A DNA stretch of 64,000 nucleotides, from assembly GCA_012026655.1 (NCBI GenBank), contig JAAILG010000029.1:1-64000 (forward strand), written 5' to 3'. Source of the stretch: Hydrolagus affinis. Its lineage: Eukaryota. Below are positions 40,176-41,139 of this stretch, piece after piece. A program made the translations under genes and the position numbers. The stretch's first letter is position 1; each line of letters begins with the position of its first letter. The notes below the pieces were generated by a model that had not been told where the DNA came from, ran no database searches, and saw nothing but the letters and a program-made list of their open reading frames with translations.

Positions 40176-40576
40176 AATTGGCTTACCACTGTTATTATCT
40201 CTTATTGATTGTATAACACACACTGTCTCTCTCTCACGCGCGCACACACACACACACCCCTTCGAAGCTGCTGACAGAAACTTCTTTTGGATTCTGAATG
40301 TGTTTCTAAAGTTTAACTGAAGTATTAAATCTTTCGACACGTGCACTACTGCAAGTAAATATTTTAGCAATAAAGATGTTGCTTCACAGACAGACAGTCA
40401 ATAAATAAATGAAACAGAAGAGCCACGAGCAAGCGTTTGAGTGTTCACTAAACGTGTGGGCTGTTGCAGCATGCTGTTGCTAGGATGAACCGTGCTGTGA
40501 ATGAGATAATGCAAACGGTAATTTAACCACATGGCAAGTTGCTGATCTCAGGTGTGGTGAGGTTTGGGCTGGTGAT

Positions 40577-40628
40577 ATGCTAAGCCTGGGCTCTGTACCG
40601 CCTAATGGGGAAGGAGCAAAGTTAGAGG
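40577..40628 (+). CDS. RORA: Candidate alternative first coding exon of RORA, MLSLGSVPPNGEGAKLE-G, phase-1 donor
   Basis: ATG at 40577 with G at -3; 17 codons + 1 nt; donor AGG|GTGAGT at 40629. Joined to 43184 it gives G|GC (Gly), in frame with exon 2. No transcript evidence is available here. Confidence 0.55.
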
Positions 40629-41139
40629 GTGAGTCACTCCACCCGACAACTTAAAGCTGCTTTTGCAGAAGCGCAGATACATTCTGTCAGAATTGTTGCA
40701 CACTTCGAAGGCCCTGCCTTACGCAAATTTCCATTCAGCAAGCAAAATGCACTTTTGCAAAACAGGCTTAGCTCTGTCTCTCGCTGATAACTGTATGCTT
40801 CTTACCAAAGCGTATTCTGCTGCTATCTGCAATTGGAGGTTGGTACTTCAGTGTGTCGCCTTTGTATCACATATTCACTGGATCAGAAAAAACATTTGAG
40901 TCCATAGCTAGAGAGGGGTGGGACGTGAGTGGGACATTGGCCACCTAACTTGGCTGGAATTCTGAGGCTTTTTTTTCCTGATGACAAAAACCCATCAAAA
41001 AGCTAAATTATCAATATGTTGTACCGTGAAGTAGTAAACAGGAAAACAAAAGTTTTTTTTATAAACAGACATTTACTGTTTGAAATGATACTGACCGCCA
41101 ATCAAAAACTGTTGAGTTGAAAGAAAACCAAAAGTGTGG

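What the first reader, a model, noticed from the sequence alone, without database searches (positions are those of the whole stretch)
40330..40640. Candidate unannotated alternative first exon/promoter of RORA, 2.55 kb upstream of exon 2
Seen: a repeat-free block containing ATG(40577)-CTA-AGC-CTG-GGC-TCT-GTA-CCG-CCT-AAT-GGG-GAA-GGA-GCA-AAG-TTA-GAG-G|GTGAGT. The phase-1 donor supplies exactly the G needed to rebuild the Gly codon (G|GC) at the start of exon 2, giving MLSLGSVPPNGEGAKLEGISVTKKTHTS. An in-frame stop at 40502 and no compatible upstream acceptor argue for a first exon rather than a cassette. Upstream lie CACGTG (40338), CACGAG (40424), an E'-box AACGTG (40451) and several short uORFs. 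Known: ROR-alpha isoforms differ only in the N-terminal domain, which modulates DNA binding, and this N-terminus is not one of the classic human alpha1-alpha4 starts as I recall them. PPNGEGAK loosely echoes PTPAGEGAR of alpha2/3, possibly by chance. Inference: a short-transcript, possibly clock-driven isoform that bypasses the large intron 1.
Basis: partly seen in the sequence, partly recalled or inferred. Interest (0 to 1): 0.78.

Follow-up and report, generated by a model that had tools for sequence, protein, structure and literature searches.

The report
Likely cryptic exon in RORA intron
A start codon and strong splice signal sit in the first intron of a chimaera's clock-linked receptor gene RORA, but such pairs occur by chance about once in an intron stretch this long and no fetched RORA protein has this front end, so it is likely ordinary intron DNA, though a cluster of clock-type motifs beside it leaves a minor transcript possible.

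Summary
In detail: ATG 40577, 17 open codons, a strong phase-1 donor at 40628|40629 in frame with exon 2 (43184-43213), single-copy, E-box-like sites upstream. The genome is a chimaera's (hinge exon 99% to Callorhinchus milii). The exon claim is unsupported. ATG-plus-donor pairs this strong occur equally on both strands (8 sense, 7 antisense in 79.7 kb); 1.35 are expected in the 43 kb of intron 1 seen. The peptide matches none of 238 distinct pre-DBD N-termini fetched, including 33 shark, ray and chimaera RORA proteins, and the alpha2/3 echo is noise. The normal alpha1 exon 1 exists on another contig. The block is not CpG-rich and has seven upstream ATGs. No shark genome DNA was available. Odds: chance 0.55; E-box element with at most a minor spliced transcript 0.27; translated chimaera-restricted isoform 0.12; conserved isoform 0.04. 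The scan had not noted this on other DNA.

The parts
40577..40628 (+). Candidate coding part: ATG, 17 codons and the first base of a split Gly codon (likely cryptic)
   Evidence: Context G at -3, C at +4. No protein match.
40626..40634 (+). Phase-1 splice-donor-like site AGG|GTGAGT
   Evidence: 6.1 bits on an approximate recalled matrix, above 6 of 8 real RORA donors scored; 10 of 2580 GT sites in 1-43100 score as high.
40235..40554 (.). Cluster of six E-box-like hexamers: CACGCG 40235, CACGTG 40338, CACGAG 40424, AACGTG 40451, CACATG 40528, CAGGTG 40549
   Evidence: five lie in 40326-40575; 0.16% of 250-nt windows of the 197-kb contig reach five (5 clusters in all); 1% of local dinucleotide shuffles; 3.8% after look-elsewhere over 64 palindrome families.
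40376..40545 (+). Seven short upstream ORFs (2-24 codons)
   Evidence: four have A at -3.
40502..40504 (+). In-frame TGA bounding the open frame
40719..40726 (+). D-box/C-EBP-like octamer TTACGCAA just inside the putative intron
   Evidence: 6 matches to a loose forward pattern in the window. Its central G (40723) is A in the close relative X1.
43184..43213 (+). RORA exon 2 (alpha1-type, 30 nt, phase 1 to phase 1)
   Evidence: strong acceptor, 17 pyrimidines of 20.

Best explanation
The block is single-copy DNA in intron 1 of chimaera RORA holding an ATG and a strong phase-1 donor, and it is likely a cryptic site that is not used as a first exon. Shown: such pairs arise at about 0.03 per kb per strand and phase, equally on the untranscribed strand, and exon 2 already has its normal partner, an alpha1 exon 1 with a phase-1 donor on contig C930. 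Inferred: the donor stays silent because no good acceptor upstream defines an internal exon and no promoter supplies a capped 5' end, so splicing runs from alpha1 exon 1 to exon 2. The E-box-like cluster would then be one of the roughly one-per-40-kb clusters in this contig, lying next to the donor by coincidence and picked out by the scan for that reason.
For:: 15 ATG-open frame-donor hits at or above the candidate's score over six strand/phase classes in 79.7 kb (8 sense, 7 antisense; phase 1: 3 and 3); 1.35 expected in the 43 kb of intron 1 in the window, P(at least one) 0.74; of 474 proteins fetched (mostly RORA, also RORC, ANXA2, ICE2), 294 have 20 or more residues before the DBD (238 distinct); best local score 29, reached by 62% of 500 shuffles; 0 of 474 contain any of four 6-mers of the predicted N-terminus. 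Of 33 cartilaginous-fish RORA proteins, 8 carry exon 2: 7 alpha1 and 1 different short start (P0087); 12 candidates, none at E<=10 (weak test); no match in 2.3 kb upstream of exon 2 in a fish-like contig L016 (99% of random intron pieces score as well); 8 CpG, o/e 0.52, GC 0.46, against 20 CpG, 0.77, 0.62 at alpha1 exon 1; seven uATGs; five clusters as dense in 197 kb; no RORE, TATA-like or GC-box match within 40200-40640.
Against: The only five-site E-box cluster in the first 79.7 kb lies directly before this ATG (0.16% of windows; 3.8% after look-elsewhere; about 11% across the three sense phase-1 hits, hand arithmetic). A hit within 2.6 kb of exon 2 has chance probability 0.08. Zebrafish roraa is activated by Bmal1b/Clocka through promoter E-boxes (PMC12055712, passages), so E-boxes are the expected motif class. 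About 22 different non-alpha1 segments are joined to exon 2 in database models of other vertebrates, so lineage-restricted 5' exons are common here and would not show up as conserved. The protein search saw only cluster representatives and up to 15 members per cluster; the one C. milii RefSeq protein seen was alpha4-type (P0402).
Confidence: 0.55

Rival explanations
1. The E-box cluster is a real intronic enhancer bound by bHLH factors (CLOCK:BMAL1 or USF/HES type). When active it would start transcription locally, use the strong donor and splice to exon 2, giving a low-level spliced RNA of the meRNA kind that is poorly translated because of the uORFs.
For: Cluster density; one of only two perfect CACGTG in 64 kb; D-box-like octamer at 40719; intragenic enhancers act as alternative promoters using host splice signals (PMC4054604, passages); E-box control of zebrafish roraa.
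Against: Clusters this dense recur about every 40 kb here; motif family and window were chosen after seeing the data; only one site is canonical; sites are 21 or more nt apart, not the 6-7 nt tandem spacing recalled for strong clock elements; the D-box-like site differs in close relative X1.
Confidence: 0.27
2. A genuine chimaera-restricted promoter and first coding exon give a short-transcript RORalpha that keeps the exon-2 segment next to the DNA-binding domain but swaps the alpha1 exon-1 segment for 17 new residues.
For: Frame, phase and donor strength; adequate start context; many lineage-restricted 5' segments on exon 2 in other vertebrates, including a skate model P0087; ATG, frame and donor show no listed change in X1 (uninformative at about 1.2% divergence).
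Against: Chance rate of such pairs; five uATGs in the 120 nt before the ATG; no CpG-rich promoter; no transcript evidence.
Confidence: 0.12
3. One reading: a clock-driven isoform conserved across jawed vertebrates and related to the alpha2/3 start.
For: E-box cluster; zebrafish precedent.
Against: 0 of 238 distinct N-termini match, although alpha1 and alpha4 starts are plainly recognisable from sharks to mammals; the alpha2/3-like model P0085 scores 19, below the shuffle median of 29, and lacks the exon-2 peptide; no match in L016.
Confidence: 0.04
4. A cassette exon of 90 or 123 nt included between alpha1 exon 1 and exon 2, like the cassettes in mammal, marsupial and salmonid models.
For: Two frame-preserving AGs with an open frame; such cassettes exist in P0032/P0042, P0020/P0161 and P0071.
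Against: Acceptors are AAG and GAG with 10 and 8 pyrimidines of 20; no peptide match to those cassettes.
Confidence: 0.02

Closest known systems
RORalpha1-4 alternative N-termini (PMC4750502, PMC11099308, PMC6479703; passages read)
   Same: Would be a first coding exon with a phase-1 donor changing only the N-terminal domain; it would splice to exon 2 as alpha1 does.
   Different: alpha1 and alpha4 starts are conserved from sharks to mammals and alpha1 exon 1 is CpG-rich; this peptide matches none of them and has no transcript support.
Lineage-restricted 5' segments on exon 2 in RefSeq/Ensembl models (e.g. P0087 skate, P0016-P0019 jay, P0008 lizard, P0438 frog)
   Same: Short unique start spliced in phase 1 to exon 2.
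   Different: Those are database models, often tied to species RNA data (not checked here); none resembles this peptide, and this one has no model.
Enhancer-associated alternative first exons / meRNAs (PMC4054604 passages; original Kowalczyk 2012 not read)
   Same: Intronic motif cluster followed by a donor that could use the host's downstream exons.
   Different: Defined by enhancer chromatin and sequenced transcripts, neither available here.
Zebrafish roraa promoter with two E-boxes, two D-boxes and a RORE (PMC12055712, passages)
   Same: E-box and D-box-like motifs at a RORA locus.
   Different: That fragment was tested in reporters. The paper describes a ten-exon gene, which suggests the alpha4-type promoter downstream of exon 2 (my inference; figure and supplements not seen). 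No RORE match here.

Membership tests
RORA alternative first coding exon | ATG, open frame and phase-1 donor in frame with a downstream exon | tested here: met
   expected by chance with P 0.74 in this intron stretch.
RORA alternative first coding exon | Spliced transcript using the donor | tested here: inconclusive
RORA alternative first coding exon | Mapped transcription start | not testable with these tools
   No CAGE or 5'RACE data.
RORA alternative first coding exon | Peptide conserved across jawed vertebrates, as alpha1 and alpha4 are | tested here: not met
   best score 29, 62% of shuffles reach it; limited to annotated proteins that were listed.
RORA alternative first coding exon | CpG-rich promoter like alpha1 exon 1 | tested here: not met
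   8 CpG, o/e 0.52 against 20 CpG, 0.77. Not all promoters are CpG-rich.
RORalpha2/3 first exon | Sequence homology | tested here: not met
   score 19 against the one alpha2/3-like model fetched (P0085); human alpha2/3 themselves were not among the fetched proteins.
CLOCK:BMAL1 E-box element | Canonical CACGTG with clustered variants above background | tested here: inconclusive
   Present; top 0.16% of windows, 3.8% after look-elsewhere, P(any triplet in window) 0.03-0.31 by motif set.
CLOCK:BMAL1 E-box element | Binding and rhythmic, E-box-dependent activity | not testable with these tools
   Needs ChIP or reporter assay.
meRNA / intragenic enhancer promoter | Enhancer chromatin and a spliced polyadenylated transcript | not testable with these tools
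   No chromatin data; RNA test inconclusive.

The most novel reading that the evidence does not exclude
An E-box-driven intronic promoter gives chimaeras a fifth kind of RORalpha: a clock-responsive transcript about 60 kb long that skips the giant intron 1, keeps the DNA-binding-adjacent exon-2 segment of alpha1 and lacks the alpha1 exon-1 segment, so it could cycle faster and escape alpha1-specific partners.
Probability: 0.12. Interest if true: 0.4.

Novelty: not a real feature. Interest (0 to 1): 0.15.

Why it matters
RORalpha isoforms differ only at the N-terminus, which sets DNA-binding and partner choice (PMC11099308, PMC6479703, passages). A new clock-driven start in an early-branching jawed vertebrate would inform how these isoforms arose. 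If true it would still be one more member of a known class, and one of some twenty lineage-restricted 5' segments already modelled on exon 2. As it stands, the result is a calibration: an in-frame ATG with a strong donor is expected by chance in a long intron.

Tried and rejected
RNA evidence: no RNA holder listed; the three RNA runs laid on 39600-41300 showed only repeat-derived reads, which is no evidence either way; the 40628-43184 junction stays untested. Close relative X1: 16 differing letters and 9 gap letters over 39857-41175; 14 substitutions are listed, none in 40451-40673, 73 rows not shown; an unchanged 52-nt exon has probability about 0.5 at this divergence (hand arithmetic), so it was not counted as conservation. 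Direct protein search with the open frame 40505-40651: nothing (weak for 18 informative residues). Metagenome scan for exon 2 gave 1 contig, L016, with no upstream match. Rfam on 39000-43500: 1 chance-level hit, E 0.72, outside the block. alpha4 first exon not found in the contig or genome. No vertebrate genome besides the window's own could be searched. Paper searches (listings only except five papers read in passages) listed nothing on this exon or on cartilaginous-fish RORA isoforms; most subscription papers and all supplements were unseen. Earlier scan notes: none on this or look-alike DNA. No structure prediction: 17 residues of likely disordered N-terminus would not be informative. The donor matrix used approximate frequencies from recall, so scores are relative only.

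Full report
Setting. The window is G000:C29:1-64000, in a 1.11-Gb genome of 245,464 contigs. The rest of the contig holds RORA exons 3 onward, from about 79,750 to the stop near 100,390. The hinge exon is 99% identical to Callorhinchus milii RORA and 90-93% to the best shark hits, so the animal is a chimaera. The alpha1 first exon lies on contig C930 (minus strand, near its end) and ends in a phase-1 donor. Exon 2 therefore has its ordinary partner, and the window shows only the last 43 kb of intron 1.

Observation. The block is single-copy. One correction: two frame-preserving AGs exist upstream (exon starts 40506 and 40539), but with 8 and 10 pyrimidines of 20 against 15-17 at three real acceptors, so a cassette is unlikely rather than impossible.

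Is ATG plus donor more than chance? I scored donors with an approximate matrix from recall. The candidate scores 6.1 bits, above 6 of 8 real RORA donors. I counted ATG-open frame-donor sets at or above this score on both strands and all three phases in 79.7 kb: 15 in all, 8 sense and 7 antisense, and 3 against 3 in phase 1. That predicts 1.35 in the intron stretch (P of at least one 0.74) and 0.08 within 2.6 kb of exon 2. At the score of exon 2's own donor the figures are 4.6 and 0.24. The geometry alone carries little weight.

Is the peptide known or conserved? Three database searches and three cluster look-ups gave 474 proteins, mostly RORA but also RORC, ANXA2 and ICE2. The lists were partial: 120 of 397 and 120 of 308 hits, and up to 15 members per cluster. 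Against the 238 distinct pre-DBD segments of 20 or more residues, the 18-residue peptide scores at best 29, which 62% of 500 shuffles reach; 0 of 474 contain any of four diagnostic 6-mers. Of 33 cartilaginous-fish RORA proteins, 8 carry exon 2: 7 are alpha1 and 1 skate model has a different short start. The one C. milii RefSeq protein seen is alpha4-type. The only alpha2/3-like model fetched scores 19 and lacks exon 2. A fish-like metagenome contig with 2.3 kb upstream of exon 2 matches exon 2 at 86% but not the block; this is a weak test. Of 141 exon-2-bearing proteins, 37 were not auto-classed as alpha1; six of these are alpha1 by eye, which leaves about 22 distinct non-alpha1 segments. This cuts both ways: a conserved isoform is unlikely, and a lineage-restricted one would be commonplace.

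Does it look like a promoter? The 311-nt block has GC 0.46, 8 CpG and o/e 0.52, in the top 13-19% of local windows, against 0.62, 20 and 0.77 at alpha1 exon 1. No RORE, GC box or TATA-like match lies within 40200-40640. Seven uATGs precede the ATG, five within 120 nt, which is poor for a translated leader unless transcription starts after 40533.

Five sites within one mismatch of CACGTG lie in 40326-40575, and a sixth at 40235. Only 0.16% of 250-nt windows of the contig reach five; there are five such clusters in 197 kb and this is the only one in the window. Local dinucleotide shuffles reach five in 1% of cases, and allowing any of 64 palindrome families gives 3.8% (6.8% in the coarser test). 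A D-box-like octamer lies at 40719, but its central G differs in relative X1. Zebrafish roraa responds to Bmal1b/Clocka through promoter E-boxes (PMC12055712, passages), and intragenic enhancers can start spliced transcripts (PMC4054604, passages). A cluster somewhere is expected; its position next to this ATG is mildly surprising.

Expression. No RNA holder was listed. This is no evidence either way.

Mechanism and odds. Most likely (0.55) the donor is cryptic: with no good acceptor and no promoter it is not defined as an exon, and splicing runs from alpha1 exon 1 to exon 2. The chance rate, the alpha1 exon and the missing protein match are shown; silence of the donor is inferred. Next (0.27) is an E-box enhancer with at most a minor, poorly translated spliced RNA. 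A translated chimaera-restricted isoform gets 0.12, a conserved clock-driven isoform 0.04 and a cassette 0.02. These odds are my judgement. If translated, the protein would keep the exon-2 segment beside the zinc fingers, a segment also recognisable in RORgamma1 proteins, and lose the alpha1 exon-1 segment; the alpha1 N-terminal domain mediates beta-catenin binding in human cells (PMC6479703, passages; which residues was not checked).

Known context. Four human isoforms differ only at the N-terminus (PMC4750502 and PMC11099308, passages; Giguere 1994 seen only as cited there). Six paper searches listed nothing on this exon. Supplements were not read; the coordinates of the zebrafish promoter fragment may be there. 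The scan had no note on this or look-alike DNA; one note on a camelid alpha2/3 exon was not tested here.

Verdict. The sequence description is accurate, the exon is unsupported and probably cryptic, and one junction count in chimaera RNA-seq would settle it. Interest 0.15.

Noticed in passing
window 26567-26618 (+): A second single-copy ATG, 17 codons and phase-1 donor (CTG|GTGAGT, score 6.45). Its peptide matches the start of a bird model P0012 (Limosa) at score 39, reached by 2% of shuffles, and the bird match ends where the donor would fall. Noticed after the fact and P0012 looks like an ab initio model, so it may be chance, but it has more comparative support than the candidate.
   Followed up: partly
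window 53000-53900, gap 53369-53468: The most CpG-rich part of the window (o/e up to 1.37) surrounds the only N gap. The alpha4 first exon, conserved in C. milii and sharks, was not found in the contig or genome and likely lies in this gap.
   Followed up: partly
G000:C930:523-690 (-), locus L017: alpha1 first exon near the end of contig C930, pointing off it; it suggests C930 lies upstream of C29.
   Followed up: yes
G000:C29 about 79700-79753 (L003): The intron just before exon 3 reads like the segment that many bird and mammal models (P0010, P0012, P0085, P0362-P0375) translate as an exon-3 extension, but carries an in-frame stop here. It looks like a conserved non-coding stretch at the acceptor that annotation mistakes for coding sequence.
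   Followed up: no
G000:C29:79389-79541 (L003): The N-terminus of C. milii model P0135 matches intron DNA here at 62% (E 1e-17), so that model's start is likely an annotation artefact.
   Followed up: no
proteins P0032/P0037/P0042/P0165, P0020/P0161/P0239, P0071/P0419-P0432: Cassette segments between alpha1 exon 1 and exon 2, each shared within a lineage (bat and bovids, marsupials, salmonids) and not among the four classic isoforms.
   Followed up: no
window 55000-55400: A second CpG-rich block (20 CpG in 300 nt, o/e 0.99) in intron 2, possibly a regulatory element.
   Followed up: no
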